Source: a virus
Length of the DNA: 64,000 nt
Reading direction: 5' to 3' (one strand)
Virus record (IMG/VR): IMGVR_UViG_3300011445_000018
Coordinates: 1-64,000 of that record
Shown here: piece after piece, positions 41,412-46,913 of the stretch
How the letters are laid out: the number at the start of each line of letters is the position of its first letter
How positions within the stretch are numbered: position 1 is the stretch's first letter
Translations under genes and position numbers: made by a program
The notes under the pieces: generated by a model
What the model was told of the DNA's origin: nothing
Seen by the model: the letters and a program-made list of their open reading frames with translations, nothing else
Database searches by the model: none

Positions 41412-42047
41412 CAACCTGATCAATTATAGTACAGCACTTAAATCTATACGCTGTAACATGTTACATCGACTATGAAACCAAAGCGATCAAGGTGGTCAAA
41501 TGTAGTACAAGGGGTATTTATACCCCCTAAACCCACTATATGTGACGTAAACCAAAACGGACTCAGTGTTTGCGACAGGGGTAAAAATAAAATCGCAAAC
41601 GGCATGCCTCTTGCTACTACTACCATTTCGGCTGACTGACCCGACCTTGACTCAGTCGCGTGACGCCCATAGCGTGCACGCGGGGACCGAAAACATTTTG
41701 TTTTTGGTCGTCAGGATTCACGGGTCGGCGGTCAATAAGACATAGAAAGGGACAAACGAACATGCGGGGCTGAGCCAGCCTTAGGCCGATGACAAAGTGA
41801 ATCACTAATAACGACCCATGGTAACATGGGGCGGGCGGTTTCAATCCGCAAACTTTCAATCGCTATACGGCTATGCATCATGCGATGCTAAGTGGAATCG
41901 TAAGATAGTCAATCGATTCGTTAGCGGGCGAATTATAGAAACGTTGGGAACACGGTTTGCCACAAGCAATTGTCGTGAAGTGCAAACTATCTATCAACGT
42001 CTGAACGATAGGTTAGTGTGGACCTAGTTGCCCCATAAGGGGACACT

Positions 42048-42365
42048 ATGAACACACAGACCATTATCCAACTTAACAAACTACCTTCGTTGCAATCTCT
42101 TGACAAGCCAGCACTGGCCATGACAGGGGAGCAAACACGGCAACGGAGTTACCTGGAATCAGTCGCGGATTTGGATGCTACAATTAACAGCATCGAACGT
42201 CGCGTCAAAAGCGAAAAGGTAGCATACGAAAAGGCTACCAATCAACCTTGGAAAACGAGCGATGGCAAATCGCATTTCACGTGCGAACAAGCCATCGACC
42301 ATGCTTACGCGAACAAGTGCAAGTGGGTAAAGTGCACCGGAATCGGTATGATTTGGCACAGTTAA
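42048..42365 (+). CDS. Hypothetical early protein enclosed by a 28-bp stem
   Basis: AAGGGG RBS; flanking IR 42007-42034/42374-42401. Confidence 0.7.
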   Translation: MNTQTIIQLNKLPSLQSLDKPALAMTGEQTRQRSYLESVADLDATINSIERRVKSEKVAYEKATNQPWKTSDGKSHFTCEQAIDHAYANKCKWVKCTGIGMIWHS

Positions 42366-42475
42366 CACTTTTCGGGGCAACTAGGCCCATACTAACCTAT
42401 CAGGGGATGGTTGCTTTGGCTGTTTTAGCCTGTTAAAATGTCCAAGGGAGCCATCCCCACAAACAAGGAAACCAC

Positions 42476-42682
42476 ATGAACGGTAAATGGTATAAAGGTA
42501 ACAATGCATACTACTTTGTGGACAATGAAAATTATGCCTATCGTGTTTGGGAAAATGGTAACGTTATGGGAATGTCCGAATACGACGCCACTAATCTAAT
42601 ACGCGGATTGTGCACTGAGATACCTTGTCCGGCATTCGGTGCAAGTGCTTTGAAAGATTTACAACGTCTATTGGAGCAATGA
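42476..42682 (+). CDS. Hypothetical early protein
   Basis: AAGGA RBS after a motif copy. Confidence 0.7.
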   Translation: MNGKWYKGNNAYYFVDNENYAYRVWENGNVMGMSEYDATNLIRGLCTEIPCPAFGASALKDLQRLLEQ

Positions 42683-42732
42683 TGACAATCGCAATCCTCC
42701 TCGTGCTTCTAGTCTTGTTACTTCTAGTCTGA
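42679..42732 (+). CDS. 17-aa hydrophobic peptide MMTIAILLVLLVLLLLV
   Basis: ATGA overlap with the upstream stop; GGAG just upstream. Confidence 0.45.
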   Translation: MMTIAILLVLLVLLLLV

Positions 42733-42769
42733 TTTTCGGGGCTTTTGATAAAGCCCCATAGCAACCATC

Positions 42770-42981
42770 CCTAATACACGAGTATTGGCTTTGAGTAACA
42801 ATCGGGGCTTGCCACGATTTGTTAACTCTAGCTGATTCAAAGCACACGAACTAATCCAATTAGGTCAATTGATATTGTTAACAACCCTTGCGGCTTAAAG
42901 TGCTATTGAATGGTACGGAAGGACGCAACGTTGCCAACGCGATATGGCTTAGCGTAACGAAGCCAATACTCGTTTGTTAGG
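42770..42981 (+). ncRNA. Putative multi-helix structured RNA between two motif copies
   Basis: 24-bp closing stem (42770-42793/42958-42981) with G-U pairs. Internal helices GAGTAACAATCG/CGATTTGTTAACTC and ATTCAA-AGCAC/GTGCT-A-TTGAAT. No ORF in the track. Confidence 0.6.
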
Positions 42982-43013
42982 ATCAACCATCCCCAATTAC
43001 AGGAGCTATTACA

Positions 43014-43313
43014 ATGCTCAAGTTTGTTGACATCGGTCGCAAAGGCTATTTGGTAATTGCCGAAATTAGCCCAGATGACAAGTTATGTCGATCCATTGGC
43101 TTTCTGGACTTAACATCGCCGATCAGACCAATGGCGACCGTTGCCGCCGACTATGTCATGGACACAGTCAATTTGTTAAATGAACGAATTGCCAGATTGC
43201 CGCCGTTCATACAACAAGCCATTGTGCCAATCGTTCGCCCGATCACCGATCCACAATTCGTGCAAGAATGGCACTACATCGAAACCAGCGAGCCATTGTC
43301 CTTGTTAAATTGA
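43014..43313 (+). CDS. Hypothetical early protein
   Basis: AGGAG RBS after a motif copy. Confidence 0.7.
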   Translation: MLKFVDIGRKGYLVIAEISPDDKLCRSIGFLDLTSPIRPMATVAADYVMDTVNLLNERIARLPPFIQQAIVPIVRPITDPQFVQEWHYIETSEPLSLLN

Positions 43314-43380
43314 ACAAATGCCCGGTCAGCCAGGGGCAATACTGGTTGAAAGCAACCATCCCTAACAGAAAGGACAAATA

Positions 43381-43638
43381 ATGAAAGAGTACGTTGTGCG
43401 TGTTGTTATTCCCGATATTGACAATGACATATTGGGATTGGCAAAACCAATCGATGGAGCATTTCTTGAATGTCTACGCTATGCTGGTATTGTTAAAATT
43501 CACACTTCTGATACTGGCCAAGTATTTGATATTCGTTGCCCAGACGTTGTTAAAATGTCCAAAAATTGGGCAAATGCCAATGCCGACCGCATGAAAAGCT
43601 TTGGCTACAATGCCGTCGCCGCACCAGCCTATGAATGA
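43381..43638 (+). CDS. Hypothetical early protein
   Basis: Motif followed by AGAAAGGA RBS. Confidence 0.7.
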   Translation: MKEYVVRVVIPDIDNDILGLAKPIDGAFLECLRYAGIVKIHTSDTGQVFDIRCPDVVKMSKNWANANADRMKSFGYNAVAAPAYE

Positions 43639-43705
43639 TTCCCTCCCCGGTATTGTGGGAATTAACAATGCCGGAAGCAACCATCCCTAACAGAAAGGAC
43701 GAACA

Positions 43706-45711: not shown

Positions 45712-45800
45712 CATTCGGCATTGTGTCGGGTGTTTGTTTAACAAACGTCTTTCGCAAGGGGGCGTTACAATGGGCTTGCTAACTCTAACAAGGAAAACGT

Positions 45801-46016
45801 ATGTCACCACGTTACTATCGTTTATGTGTCAAACGAAATGGCTACTGGCATGAAGTGGCACGAATCGGTAAATCATTAGCCGTTTCAAGAGACAATGCCA
45901 TATTGTTACTTGGCAGTTGGAACGAATTAGACGCAATTTTCGGCATGGGGAATTGGTCTGTTACTACTGACCTTTCCCTCGACTTTGTTACTTGTGTAAC
46001 ATCTGACATCAATTAA
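45801..46016 (+). CDS. Hypothetical early protein
   Basis: AAGGA RBS. Confidence 0.65.
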   Translation: MSPRYYRLCVKRNGYWHEVARIGKSLAVSRDNAILLLGSWNELDAIFGMGNWSVTTDLSLDFVTCVTSDIN

Positions 46017-46035
46017 CAAAAAGCAACCATCCACT

Positions 46036-46130
46036 AAACATTATAGAGTTGAGTTGCCAGTGCTTATATATAAAATGCGATTCGCGTTTATCGCATATTA
46101 AGTTACTGGCAACTCTACTGTGTGATGTTT
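46036..46130 (+). ncRNA. Putative long hairpin RNA between motif copies
   Basis: AAACATTATA/TGTGATGTTT (2 G-U), GAGTTGCCAGT/ACTGGCAACTC, ATGCGAT/ATCGCAT. Confidence 0.55.
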
Positions 46131-46145
46131 GAAAGCAACCATCCT

Positions 46146-46300
46146 AAATGTCACAAAGCTGGGCTGTCAGCTAATGCTGGCCGCACTGCATGATAATGTG
46201 TAGCAAGGCATTCTGATGCCATTCAGATTGCTATGTGGTTTCGACAGCCATAACAGTGTCGCATGTCTAAAGGCCCTGACAGCCTAGCTTTGTTACATTT
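46146..46300 (+). ncRNA. Putative structured RNA between motif copies
   Basis: 25-bp closing stem 46146-46170/46276-46300 (1 G-U, 1 mismatch), with internal GCACTG/CAGTGT and TAGCAA/TTGCTA helices. Confidence 0.55.
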
Positions 46301-46328
46301 AACCATCCCCAAAAACAAGGAAACAGTC

Positions 46329-46508
46329 ATGCAAGTCGAAGGCACAATTCGATACAAAGACACGTATCGAGATCTTATCAAAGCCTTAATGGGACATGAA
46401 GATGTTCTGGATAGGCCCATCATCGTGCAAATTGAATTGCCAGGAGGCATAAATTTCATTCTAGATGATGAAGATAACAAAGAGCGTAGAATATTAACGT
46501 TTGAATAA
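46329..46508 (+). CDS. Hypothetical early protein
   Basis: AAGGA RBS before ATG 46329, downstream of the track start. Confidence 0.6.
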   Translation: MQVEGTIRYKDTYRDLIKALMGHEDVLDRPIIVQIELPGGINFILDDEDNKERRILTFE

Positions 46509-46587
46509 TTTCGCTGGACCTTTGTTAAAAGGTCCAGAAGCAACCATCCCTAAATATGTGGTACTGGGCCATTAGAAAGAATTAACA

Positions 46588-46839
46588 ATGTTTCACTTCG
46601 ACATTACATGTGAAGATGTTCGCCTAATCGCGAACGAAGTAAGCCCAACAAGTGTAAGAGTGACGTTGTACGACAATCTCAGTGGCAAAAGTCACTTGCT
46701 ACAGTCTGTTAGTTTCTGTGATTTTGAAAAAATGGTCAGTGGTATGATTTGTTGCCACGGTGACGTACCAGCGGAAAGTTACCCAGCTTTAGAAGAAATT
46801 CTGAAAGGTTGCCCGAACGAGTGTCGGCCCATTCCTTAG
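46588..46839 (+). CDS. Hypothetical early protein enclosed by a 25-bp stem
   Basis: IR 46549-46573/46865-46889. Confidence 0.65.
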   Translation: MFHFDITCEDVRLIANEVSPTSVRVTLYDNLSGKSHLLQSVSFCDFEKMVSGMICCHGDVPAESYPALEEILKGCPNECRPIP

Positions 46840-46913
46840 CGTCTAGCGTTCGCTGGTCCAAAACAATGGCCCAGTACCGTGTATTTAGGTGCAATCATCC
46901 CAGGAGACAAATT

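What the first reader, a model, noticed from the sequence alone, without database searches (positions are those of the whole stretch)
42007..46901. Early operon organised as a 'stem + CAACCATCCC' RNA cassette array: candidate novel RNA processing/expression system
Seen: 12 copies of (AAAG)CAACCATCCC punctuate the + strand operon. Nearly all sit immediately 3' of a stem (46020 is an exception) and most sit just 5' of an RBS or the next stem. The stems differ in sequence, apart from one duplication, but keep their position. Some are short hairpins (42738-42757, 43326-43349, 43647-43674, 43943-43966, 46514-46537); others close large loops containing a gene or non-coding RNA. Non-Watson-Crick positions are mostly G-U on the + strand, which argues for selection on the transcript rather than on DNA. 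Inference: a repeated structure-plus-sequence signal for cleavage, protein binding or translational activation that divides one transcript into units. It is loosely analogous to T7 early RNase III sites or CRISPR repeat processing, but with genes and structured RNAs as cargo. I know of no described system with this layout.
Basis: partly seen in the sequence, partly recalled or inferred. Interest (0 to 1): 0.9.

Follow-up and report, generated by a model that had tools for sequence, protein, structure and literature searches.

The report
Phage operon punctuated by stem-plus-box joints
In an uncultured freshwater-sediment phage, almost every gap in one small-gene operon holds an RNA stem followed by the same 10-base box, and whole genes and three non-coding RNAs sit inside long helices, most likely a code that divides one long message into units, resembling but not matching known phage repeat systems.

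Summary
On the + strand between 42448 and 46901 the box CAACCATCCC occurs 7 times exactly, 4 times with one mismatch and once with two. There is also one exact antisense copy. Within one mismatch the window has 16 matches against 2.8 expected.

All 12 sense copies are non-coding. Ten lie -2 to 4 nt after a helix. Seven lie 12-20 nt before a start codon and five abut a 22-31 bp helix enclosing a gene or a non-coding RNA. Helix mismatches are G·U 17: A·C 2 on the + strand (p=3.6e-4), which argues for selection on the transcript.

No internal stem has a U-tract. The only canonical + strand terminator lies at 47525-47564, and promoter-like elements flank the operon.

Best reading (about 0.4): an RNA-level joint signal on one polycistronic transcript, for processing, end protection or protein binding. 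No RNA data and no comparators could be obtained, so cleavage is inferred.

It is not without precedent. Cluster K SAS/ESAS, T4-type PeSLs, prophage hammerhead arrays and the rrn boxB-boxA/leader-trailer layout are close analogues, but it meets none of their membership tests. This scan has noted comparable module arrays in other phages.

Verdict: a new variant of a known kind.

The parts
40764..40786 (+). 23-nt promoter-like element with a TGn-extended -10 pointing at the + operon. It is one of 6 copies, found only at 40678(-), 40764(+), 48096(-), 48130(-), 48498(+) and 48532(+).
   Evidence: 0-2 mismatches among the six; for the extended -10 pattern. Promoter function is inferred.
42007..42401 (+). 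Unit 0: 28-bp long-range helix (arms 42007-42034 and 42374-42401) enclosing gene A (42048-42365, 105 aa).
   Evidence: I1, 93% complementary; kept in MFE
42403..42458 (+). Hairpin whose 5' arm is the antisense copy (the motif on the - strand at 42404-42413) and whose 3' arm is the first, degenerate sense copy (42448/9-42458). A promoter-like TTGCTT-17 nt-TAAAAT with TG lies at 42411-42439.
   Evidence: I11; -32.8 kcal/mol, z -4.1. Spacing read. Promoter and a start near 42446 are inferred.
42476..42757 (+). Gene B (42476-42682, 68 aa), an overlapping 17-codon hydrophobic ORF (42679-42732), and the closing hairpin 42738-42757.
   Evidence: z -2.8
42762..42771 (+). Motif copy, exact, 4 nt after the hairpin. 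Its last two bases pair in the next helix.
42770..42981 (+). Non-coding module A: 22-bp closing helix (42770-42791 and 42960-42981) around about 170 nt of branched RNA.
   Evidence: I6; z -4.5; no Rfam family
42984..43349 (+). Motif copy 42984-42993, 20-nt leader with SD, gene C (43014-43313, 99 aa), hairpin 43326-43349.
43353..43674 (+). Motif copy 43353-43362, 18-nt leader, gene D (43381-43638, 85 aa), hairpin 43647-43674.
43678..43966 (+). Motif copy 43678-43687, 18-nt leader, gene E (43706-43930, GTG start, 74 aa), hairpin 43943-43966.
43971..44233 (+). Motif copy 43971-43980, 18-nt leader, gene F (43999-44202, 67 aa), hairpin 44210-44233 (an exact duplicate of 43943-43966).
   Evidence: (I7)
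44238..45780 (+). Motif copy 44238-44247, then a 31-bp long-range helix (44251-44281 and 45750-45780, extended over the SD in the MFE) enclosing gene G (44296-45711, 471 aa), which is a ParB/Noc/KorB-like fold.
   Evidence: I2; pLDDT 90; Foldseek top hits Noc, ParB, KorB
45801..46016 (+). Gene H (71 aa). It has an SD but no motif copy in front of it.
46024..46033 (+). Motif copy with 1 mismatch. It is the only copy without a convincing stem upstream.
   Evidence: z -1.6
46035..46131 (+). Non-coding module B: a rod-like hairpin of about 97 nt.
   Evidence: (I4)
46136..46145 (+). Motif copy with 1 mismatch, lying between modules B and C.
46145..46301 (+). Non-coding module C: 26-bp closing helix (46145-46170 and 46276-46301) around a branched RNA.
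   Evidence: I3; B plus C z -8.7; no tRNA
46300..46537 (+). Motif copy 46300-46309 (1 mismatch), 19-nt leader, gene I (46329-46508, 59 aa), hairpin 46514-46537.
   Evidence: z -4.8
46541..46889 (+). Motif copy 46541-46550, then a 25-bp long-range helix (46549-46573 and 46865-46889; all 3 mismatches are G·U) enclosing gene J (46588-46839, 83 aa).
   Evidence: (I5)
46892..47424 (+). Motif copy 46892-46901 (1 mismatch), 12-nt leader, gene K (46914-47126, 70 aa), then gene L (47155-47424, 89 aa) with no motif before it.
47525..47564 (+). Canonical intrinsic terminator (18-bp stem followed by a T-run), the probable end of the + strand transcription unit.

Best explanation
The stretch from about 42.0 to 47.56 kb is transcribed as one long + strand RNA, or a few overlapping ones, by host RNA polymerase. 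In that RNA the single-stranded box (A)AAG-CAACCAUCCC-YAA, placed directly 3' of a helix, marks the joint between units.

There are two unit types. Type 1 is box, 12-20 nt leader with SD, small gene, closing hairpin. Type 2 is box followed by a 22-31 bp leader-trailer helix enclosing a whole gene (A, G, J) or a structured non-coding RNA (A, B, C).

I propose that the joint is read by an RNA-binding factor, most likely an endoribonuclease, that acts in the linker between helix and box. Each upstream product would then end in a protective 3' stem, and each downstream product would begin with the box and leader. The long helices hold the 5' and 3' ends of their cargo together, as in pre-rRNA, and are long enough to be double-strand-specific (RNase III-type) substrates or end protectors.

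Shown:
- The motif and its enrichment.
- Its strict non-coding position and its position relative to helices.
- The predicted helices.
- The G·U asymmetry.
- The absence of U-tracts after internal stems.

Inferred: the single transcript, the cleavage, and the identity of the factor.
For: 1. Enrichment and placement. There are 16 matches against 2.8 expected. All 12 sense copies are non-coding in an operon that is about 74% coding (my arithmetic from the gene coordinates). Ten of the 12 begin -2 to 4 nt after a helix 3' arm.

2. RNA-level selection. Across 12 distinct stems, non-Watson-Crick positions are 17 G·U, 2 A·C and 7 other on the + strand, binomial p=3.6e-4. The arm coordinates of the long helices came from a complementarity search that counts G·U as a mismatch.

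3. One transcription unit. None of the internal stems is followed by a T-run. Two + strand sites met the terminator pattern (47525-47564 and 43872-43889), and the 18-bp one at 47525-47564 is the only canonical one. Six copies of a 23-nt promoter-like element lie only in the two control regions flanking the operon.

4. The box also precedes three modules with no ORF (42770-42981, 46035-46131, 46145-46301), which fold far better than shuffles (z -4.5 and -8.7). It therefore cannot be only a translation signal.

5. The box is predicted to be accessible. In the MFE of 41990-47600, 85 of 120 box positions are unpaired, against 36.5% of all positions.

6. Long perfect-ish inverted repeats are concentrated here. 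Of 14 pairs in 72.9 kb (at least 18 of 20 Watson-Crick pairs, at most 1.7 kb apart), 12 lie in 40-50 kb and 4 are helices of this array.

7. Identical box plus leader stands before three unrelated genes, D, E and F.

8. Precedent for RNA punctuation: hammerhead ribozymes flank single genes in prophages (PMC3088659, passages), and boxB-boxA plus leader-trailer helices occur in rrn operons (PMC10250234, passages).
Against: - There is no RNA evidence at all. No listed run is RNA, so no 5' or 3' ends are known.
- Covariation could not be tested. No homologous locus could be fetched, and contigs from four other runs were 100% identical.
- The G·U excess could be inflated by strand-biased mutation. 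I ran no control on unrelated inverted repeats.
- The short hairpins are individually weak (z -1.2 to -2.8 for three of five).
- Two gene junctions (G to H and K to L) lack the box, and one box (46024) lacks a stem.
- The near-constant 17-20 nt distance to the start codon in 6 of 7 gene-proximal copies fits a translation-leader role as well as a cleavage role.
- The box does not resemble the preferred sites of the well-studied bacterial endoribonucleases as I recall them.
- No known ribozyme or RNA family matches.
Confidence: 0.4

Rival explanations
1. Leader and recombination joint without cleavage. The box is part of a reusable 5' leader (box, spacer, SD) that insulates and boosts translation initiation of each small gene, and the preceding stem blocks structural interference from the upstream unit. 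The shared 14-44 nt of identity also serves as a crossover patch by which ORFan cassettes are shuffled, as proposed for PeSLs and left open for SAS/ESAS.
For: - The distance from box to start codon is 17, 20, 18, 18, 18, 19 and 12 nt for the 7 gene-proximal copies (coordinates).
- Identical box plus leader stands before the unrelated genes D, E and F.
- A 44-nt exact duplication of hairpin plus box occurs at 43937-43980 and 44204-44247.
- All cargo genes are ORFans: 0 of 10 have a credible PHROG hit and 0 of 10 a Pfam hit.
- Published analogues were read.
Against: - Three of 12 copies precede modules with no ORF, and two more precede helices whose genes start 38 and 49 nt further on.
- Genes A, H and L have an SD but no box.
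- No rearranged form was seen in contigs of 4 runs. This is weak, because the contigs were short.
Confidence: 0.2
2. Tether or antitermination box. The box is an RNA site, analogous to boxA after boxB in rrn operons and lambdoid nut sites, that recruits host or phage factors to the elongating polymerase. This would make transcription read through the many internal stems. It would also hold the 5' arm near the RNA exit so that the distant 3' arm can find it.
For: - The order hairpin, then conserved single-stranded box, then long leader-trailer helix is the layout described for rrn operons (PMC10250234, passages).
- Five of 12 boxes abut the 5' arm of a long helix.
- The operon contains at least 12 stable stems that polymerase must pass.
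Against: - One or two sites per operon suffice in the known systems, whereas here there are 12.
- Seven boxes precede no long helix.
- The box shows no convincing likeness to boxA. This was by eye and from recall only, with no tool test.
- The internal stems lack U-tracts, so they need no antitermination.
Confidence: 0.1
3. DNA-level protein site. The box is an asymmetric operator, comparable to the stoperators of Cluster A mycobacteriophages, bound by a phage regulator. That regulator might be one of the two ParB-like proteins. Binding would block or tune elongation through the operon.
For: - The box is asymmetric, with 12 copies in one orientation relative to transcription and a single opposite copy at the operon's start.
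- The largest gene of the array has a ParB/Noc/KorB-like fold with a DNA-binding region.
- A second ParB-like gene lies at G000 68691-69533.
- The opposite copy overlaps a promoter-like element (sequence).
Against: - A DNA site has no reason to sit 0-4 nt after RNA helices that carry a G·U bias.
- As I recall, ParB-family sites are palindromic, and this box is not.
- Other repeats in the genome are better candidates for such proteins: the CCAGCGTTC palindrome family and the 23-nt element.
Confidence: 0.12
4. Repeated promoter. Each box is a short single-element promoter for a phage-directed polymerase or sigma-like factor, so each unit is its own transcript.
For: - There are many copies before small genes, as in the early regions of T4-type phages (PMC2839356, passages).
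- The box also precedes non-coding RNAs, which a promoter can do.
- The 12-20 nt leaders are compatible with starts at the end of the box.
Against: - There are no -35/-10-like hexamers at the boxes. Sigma-70-like sites in the region are at chance level, 16 found against 16.0 expected, and none lies at a box.
- No RNA polymerase was found among the ORFs I scanned, which were not all of them. The one faint sigma-like PHROG hit (E 3e-4) had no Pfam support.
- The phage has its own distinct promoter-like element elsewhere.
- Internal stems lack U-tracts, so units would not terminate.
- The last 1-2 bases of three boxes pair in the next helix, which implies that the box is transcribed.
Confidence: 0.08

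Closest known systems
Start-associated sequences with extended inverted repeats (SAS/ESAS) of Cluster K mycobacteriophages (PMC3203893, passages read; PMC12699233, passages read: function still untested in 2025)
   Same: - A short asymmetric motif in 11-19 copies.
- Restricted to the non-structural genes.
- One orientation, plus a single opposite copy not tied to a gene start.
- Lies just upstream of starts.
- About half the copies are preceded by inverted repeats with a variable spacer.
- Function unknown.
   Different: - SAS contains the SD and lies 3-7 bp from the start. The box here lies 12-20 nt away, upstream of a separate SD.
- ESAS repeats have a conserved consensus, and their departures do not support RNA pairing. 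Here the stems are unrelated in sequence and G·U-biased.
- SAS/ESAS has no whole-gene helices and no non-coding cargo.
- The motif sequence is unrelated to GGGATAGGAGCCC.
PeSLs, promoter-early stem-loops of T4-type phages (PMC2839356, passages; PMC4122927, abstract)
   Same: - A composite stem-loop plus conserved sequence flanks ORFan genes in a plastic region.
- Shared joints before unrelated genes could act as recombination patches.
   Different: - PeSLs carry a sigma-70 consensus promoter and a stem-loop that terminates transcription. Here the box has no promoter hexamers and the stems lack U-tracts.
- PeSL stems share a G/C-run motif, whereas these stems vary in sequence.
rrn operon leader and spacer: boxB hairpin, boxA, boxC, then leader-trailer helices around 16S and 23S rRNA (PMC10250234, passages)
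   Same: - A hairpin is followed by a conserved single-stranded box, then a long helix formed by sequences flanking the whole cargo.
- The helices are longer than 17 bp, a size suited to RNase III.
   Different: - The cargo is small protein genes and unknown RNAs, not rRNA.
- There are 12 boxes rather than 2.
- No likeness to boxA was established.
- No evidence for Nus factors.
Arrays of hammerhead ribozymes flanking single genes in prophages (PMC3088659, passages)
   Same: A repeated RNA element between genes of a long phage transcript, proposed to cut it into gene-length RNAs.
   Different: No hammerhead, twister, pistol, hatchet or other Rfam ribozyme matches, even at E up to 5. The conserved part is one 10-14 nt single strand, too little for a known self-cleaving core.
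RNase III processing sites between early genes of T7-like and SPO1/SP82-like phages
   Same: Structured intergenic elements divide an early polycistronic RNA and leave stable 3' hairpins.
   Different: Those sites are local hairpins with their own conserved features. They have no adjacent conserved single-stranded box and no helices enclosing whole genes.

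Membership tests
PeSL (T4-type promoter-early stem-loop) | The repeat contains a sigma-70 consensus early promoter | tested here: not met
   None of the 16 sigma-70-like sites in 40500-48500 lies at a box, and the count equals the shuffle mean of 16.0. 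The box has no -35/-10 hexamers.
PeSL (T4-type promoter-early stem-loop) | The stem-loop acts as a transcription terminator or attenuator | tested here: not met
   No internal stem of the array is followed by a T-run. The terminator scan finds only 47525-47564 and an unrelated 5-bp site at 43872 on the + strand. Function itself is not testable here.
PeSL (T4-type promoter-early stem-loop) | Recombination between copies (indels, mini-circles) | tested here: inconclusive
   One 44-nt duplication of hairpin plus box exists. No joints were seen in contigs of 4 runs, but those contigs are short.
SAS/ESAS (Cluster K mycobacteriophages) | 13-bp motif GGGATAGGAGCCC containing the SD, 3-7 bp from the start codon | tested here: not met
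   The box is unrelated in sequence, contains no SD, and ends 12-20 nt before the start. The definition comes from PMC3203893.
SAS/ESAS (Cluster K mycobacteriophages) | One orientation, non-structural genes only, plus a single opposite copy | tested here: met
   12 sense copies and 1 antisense copy, all within 42.4-46.9 kb.
SAS/ESAS (Cluster K mycobacteriophages) | Upstream 17-bp inverted repeats with a conserved consensus that does not support RNA pairing | tested here: not met
   The stems are unrelated in sequence, and their mismatches are 17 G·U against 2 A·C.
rrn-type boxB-boxA antitermination site with leader-trailer helix | Hairpin, then a conserved single-stranded box, then a long helix formed by the cargo's flanks | tested here: met
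   This layout is seen at 5 of 12 boxes (42762, 44238, 46024, 46136, 46541). The definition comes from PMC10250234.
rrn-type boxB-boxA antitermination site with leader-trailer helix | The box is boxA and binds NusB/NusE | not testable with these tools
   The host is unknown and no boxA model was run. By eye and from recall I saw no convincing likeness.
Self-cleaving ribozyme arrays (hammerhead, twister, pistol, hatchet and others) | Match to a ribozyme covariance model | tested here: not met
   Rfam at gathering threshold gives 0 hits in the window. At E up to 5 on 40700-47600 there are 7 weak hits, none a ribozyme.
Stoperator-type operator arrays (Cluster A mycobacteriophages) | Asymmetric site bound by the phage repressor, oriented with transcription, spread over the genome | tested here: inconclusive
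   Asymmetry and orientation are met. The spread is not, since the box is confined to 4.5 kb. No repressor was identified and binding is not testable.
Integron cassette array (attC) | The conserved core forms part of the imperfect palindrome at each cassette's 3' end, with an integrase nearby | tested here: not met
   The box lies outside the stems in 11 of 12 copies. No recombinase was found among the ORFs scanned, which were not all of them.
CRISPR array | Identical repeats of 23-50 nt at regular spacing, with short spacers | tested here: not met
   The conserved part is 10-14 nt, spacing is 112-1786 nt, and the cargo is genes and structured RNAs.

The most novel reading that the evidence does not exclude
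A dedicated RNA punctuation code. A sequence-variable helix followed by the box CAACCAUCCC is read by one specific endoribonuclease, either of the host or of the phage. The phage's NYN-domain protein at 62650-63129 is a candidate. The nuclease would cut a 5.5-kb transcript into about a dozen end-protected mRNAs and three free structured small RNAs.

The whole-gene leader-trailer helices would work as in pre-rRNA. The single antisense copy at the operon's start would mask the first box in read-through RNA, but not in RNA started at the promoter-like site inside the hairpin. This would be a protein-gene counterpart of rRNA and tRNA operon processing that has not been described for phage mRNAs.
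Probability: 0.2. Interest if true: 0.8.

Novelty: new variant of a known kind. Interest (0 to 1): 0.55.

Why it matters
Repeated intergenic modules in the accessory and early operons of phages are turning up often. Examples are SAS/ESAS, PeSLs, ribozyme arrays and several earlier findings of this scan. Their functions are mostly untested.

This case is unusually informative in three ways:
- The conserved part is a short single strand, while the helices vary and carry an RNA-type mismatch signature.
- The same joint serves protein genes and non-coding RNAs.
- Whole genes are enclosed in rRNA-style leader-trailer helices.

If the joints are processing sites, this would be a compact natural system for cutting a polycistronic RNA into defined, end-protected units. 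It could be tested directly with reporters and RNA-end mapping. It would also give a handle on three unknown phage small RNAs.

Tried and rejected
Comparators (all empty)
- blastn of 42000-47000 against phages.
- The 22-nt box plus leader in viral contigs: 0 matches.
- The search for related loci with the 471-aa protein, or with alignments A1 or A3, in viral, metagenome and genome contigs.
- The search for related loci with the 280-aa neighbour.
- tblastn of genes G, A and C against phages. Only two weak hits appeared, for gene L.
- Terminase relatives L126-L137 (46-69% identity) do not carry the box above their controls (5 records).
- Those relatives also lack the ParB-like gene (5 records). 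Four of them end about 4 kb upstream of the terminase, two of these in tandem repeats.
- Whole records G001, G005, G006 and G008 have other repeat families of their own but no such array.

Sequencing runs
- 24 DNA holders were listed (freshwater sediment, groundwater) and no RNA holder.
- Laying X3, X18, X21 and X23 gave only identical short contigs, with no variants and no joints. This gives no microdiversity for covariation and no evidence on rearrangement.

Readings considered and rejected
- Known RNA families, ribozymes and tRNA-like genes.
- A pseudoknot between hairpin loops and the box: I checked by eye and found only 3-4 inconsistent pairs.
- Pairing of the box with the 3' end of 16S rRNA: from recall and by eye, 4-5 pairs at most, and the host is unknown.
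- Target-site duplication by a transposon: the box flanks modules A, B, C and J on both sides, but the terminal inverted repeats are all different and unit G has no second copy.
- Packaging (cos/pac) or Chi-like sites: the strict intergenic placement argues against both.
- The NYN protein search against solved structures gave only spurious repeat matches.

Papers: supplements were closed and not consulted. The SAS/ESAS and PeSL alignments in supplements might refine the comparison.

Full report
**What the window is.** The window is bases 1-64000 of a 72,895-nt linear IMG/VR virus record, estimated 80% complete. It has:
- a tape-measure protein, a gpA-type large terminase and a portal;
- a replication and nucleotide block with primase, DNA polymerase, helicase, ligase, thymidylate synthase and a DHH phosphoesterase.

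Nearly all large ORFs are on the - strand. The stretch in question is a small + strand island between the structural block and the replication block. The DNA is held by 24 DNA runs from freshwater sediment and groundwater, and by no listed RNA run.

**The observation.** CAACCATCCC with up to one mismatch occurs 16 times against 2.83 expected; 0 of 100 shuffles reached 16.
- Eleven copies lie on the + strand between 42762 and 46901.
- A twelfth, degenerate copy lies at 42448.
- One exact copy lies on the - strand at 42404-42413.
- The flanks extend the consensus to (A)AAG-box-YAA.
- All 12 sense copies are non-coding, in an operon that I calculate to be about 74% coding from the gene coordinates.

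**Helices.** The MFE fold of the whole transcript keeps six short hairpins and six long helices. The long helices, are:

| Helix | Length | Encloses |
|---|---|---|
| I1 | 28 bp | gene A |
| I6 | 22 bp | non-coding module A |
| I2 | 31 bp | gene G (1.5 kb) |
| I4 | 26 bp | rod-like non-coding module B |
| I3 | 26 bp | non-coding module C |
| I5 | 25 bp | gene J |

- Ten of the 12 boxes start -2 to 4 nt after a helix.
- Seven boxes are followed after 12-20 nt by a start codon with an SD in between.
- Five boxes abut the 5' arm of a long helix.
- Gene junctions G to H and K to L have no box. The box at 46024 has only a weak stem (z -1.6).

**RNA or DNA.** Across 12 distinct stems there are 203 Watson-Crick pairs, 17 G·U, 2 A·C and 7 other mismatches on the + strand. 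G·U against A·C gives p=3.6e-4. The long-helix arms came from a search that treats G·U as a mismatch, so the count is not circular for them. The short-hairpin arms came from the MFE. A strand-biased mutation spectrum could contribute, and I ran no control for that.

The non-coding modules fold far better than shuffles (z -4.5; z -8.7 for B plus C). Long near-perfect inverted repeats are concentrated here: 12 of the 14 in the genome lie in 40-50 kb, and 4 of those are helices of the array. In the MFE of 41990-47600, 85 of 120 box positions are unpaired, against 36.5% overall.

**Transcription context.**
- No internal stem is followed by a T-run.
- A canonical terminator (18-bp stem plus T-run) lies at 47525-47564 on the + strand.
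- Sigma-70-like sites in the region are at chance level, and none coincides with a box.
- A different 23-nt element with an extended -10 occurs six times, only at 40678(-), 40764(+), 48096(-), 48130(-), 48498(+) and 48532(+). These positions bracket the operon.
- The extended -10 pattern is twofold enriched in the window, 41 against 19.8.
- One copy of that pattern (42431-42439) lies in the loop region of the 42403-42458 hairpin, with TTGCTT 17 nt upstream, inside the antisense box copy. A start there would fall about 3 nt before the first box. This is inference from spacing only.
- I found no RNA polymerase among the ORFs scanned, which were not all of them.

**Cargo.** Ten small proteins have no credible PHROG or Pfam family and are not paralogues of each other. 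Genes D, E and F nevertheless share an identical box plus leader.

Gene G (471 aa) has no Pfam hit. It belongs to a family of 35 representatives, and its model has pLDDT 90. Foldseek's best matches are Noc, ParB and KorB, with probability 1.0, E from 9e-5, low TM-scores and high rmsd, consistent with domain rearrangement. A profile search of PDB sequences gave only a faint Spo0J hit (E 0.15). Gene G's SD is paired in the extension of its enclosing helix.

**What it most likely is.** The joint is a structure-plus-sequence signal on the transcript. A role in processing or end definition fits the following:
- there is one signal per joint;
- the signal occurs before non-coding modules;
- stems without U-tracts would make good 3' protectors;
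- 22-31 bp helices tie cargo ends together as in pre-rRNA.

A pure translation-leader role fits the constant spacing to start codons but not the three non-coding units. A boxA-like tether fits the order hairpin, box, long helix (PMC10250234) but not the copy number. A DNA operator fits the asymmetry, the lone opposite copy and the ParB-like genes, but not the tight coupling to G·U-biased RNA helices. A promoter fits least. I put these at 0.40, 0.20, 0.10, 0.12 and 0.08.

**Comparison with known systems.**
- Cluster K SAS/ESAS share copy number, orientation, restriction to non-structural genes, a lone opposite copy and upstream inverted repeats. However, SAS contains the SD, and ESAS repeats are sequence-conserved and do not support RNA pairing (PMC3203893). 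Their function was still open in 2025 (PMC12699233).
- PeSLs are a promoter plus a terminator (PMC2839356; PMC4122927 abstract). Both features fail here.
- Hammerhead arrays flank prophage genes (PMC3088659), but no ribozyme model matches.

This scan has noted comparable module arrays in other phages. I had listed PeSL and SAS/ESAS as leads before reading those notes.

**Limits.** Everything rests on one clonal genome. Contigs from four other runs were identical, and no homologous locus could be fetched. Neither covariation nor RNA ends could be examined.

Noticed in passing
window 40678(-), 40764(+), 48096(-), 48130(-), 48498(+), 48532(+): Six copies of a 23-nt element (TTGTCAAAAAAGTGTGCTAAAAT, 0-2 mismatches) form divergent groups on both sides of the + operon. 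It contains a perfect extended -10. These are probably the phage's main early promoters or operators. The two + copies at 48.5 kb point into - strand ORFs.
   Followed up: partly
window 48134-48497: About 360 bp of GC-rich, ORF-poor sequence lies between the divergent 23-nt elements, in a genome of 40% GC. It could be an origin or another non-coding RNA. I did not analyse it.
   Followed up: no
window 40790-42006: A 1.2-kb stretch upstream of the array has no convincing ORF. It holds a 9-copy tandem heptamer (41348-41412), repeated CCTAGTAACTAGG palindromes (41005-41090) and a 20-bp stem (41252-41271 with 41303-41322). It could be a structured leader, or a cos/pac or ori region. Four terminase relatives' contigs end about 4 kb upstream of the terminase.
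   Followed up: partly
window 40865-40951, 47470-47486, 48970-49030, 49640-49700, 50693-50720 and others: The (C/G)AGCGTTC(A) family has 12 exact CCAGCGTTC copies plus many variants. They include tandem clusters and a 17-bp perfect palindrome at 47470-47486. Some copies are coding, namely the shared N-termini of small - strand genes at 57009, 57266 and 59118. They are candidate iterons or sites for a ParB-like or other DNA-binding protein.
   Followed up: partly
window 44296-45711 (+) and G000 68691-69533 (-): The genome has two ParB-like genes. One is a 471-aa member of a family with no Pfam model whose fold matches Noc/ParB/KorB. The other is a 280-aa protein matching ParB-like PHROGs (E 1e-22).
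   Followed up: partly
window 62650-63129 (-): A 159-aa NYN-domain protein (PF01936, E 2e-19, 70.9 bits) is a possible phage endoribonuclease. I did not check its catalytic residues, and a PDB sequence search gave only spurious hits.
   Followed up: partly
window 42679-42732 (+): A 17-codon, almost purely hydrophobic ORF (MMTIAILLVLLVLLLLV) overlaps the stop of gene B by ATGA. It may be a small membrane peptide or may not be a gene.
   Followed up: no
window 43548-43562 and 42431-42445: The 15-nt string TGTTAAAATGTCCAA occurs twice, once in the hairpin at the operon's start and once inside gene D. The second may be an internal promoter.
   Followed up: no
window 43342-43358: At the C/D joint, the first six bases of the box can pair with the 3' arm of the preceding hairpin (UGGUUG-AAAG-CAACCA). 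This gives an alternative fold, which is preferred in the local MFE.
   Followed up: no
G006 (L156-L159) and G001 (L160-L162), whole records: Terminase relatives carry other genome-wide repeat families. G006 has about 45 copies of a 15-17 nt palindrome (TGATTTAGTAAATCA and its complement). G001 has about 11 copies of CCAGTGACCAGT.
   Followed up: no
window, genome-wide: TTGTTAA and its palindromic forms (for example 47590-47606, 47624-47640 and the hairpin 43943-43966) are frequent. Nine-mers containing it occur 10-13 times each.
   Followed up: no
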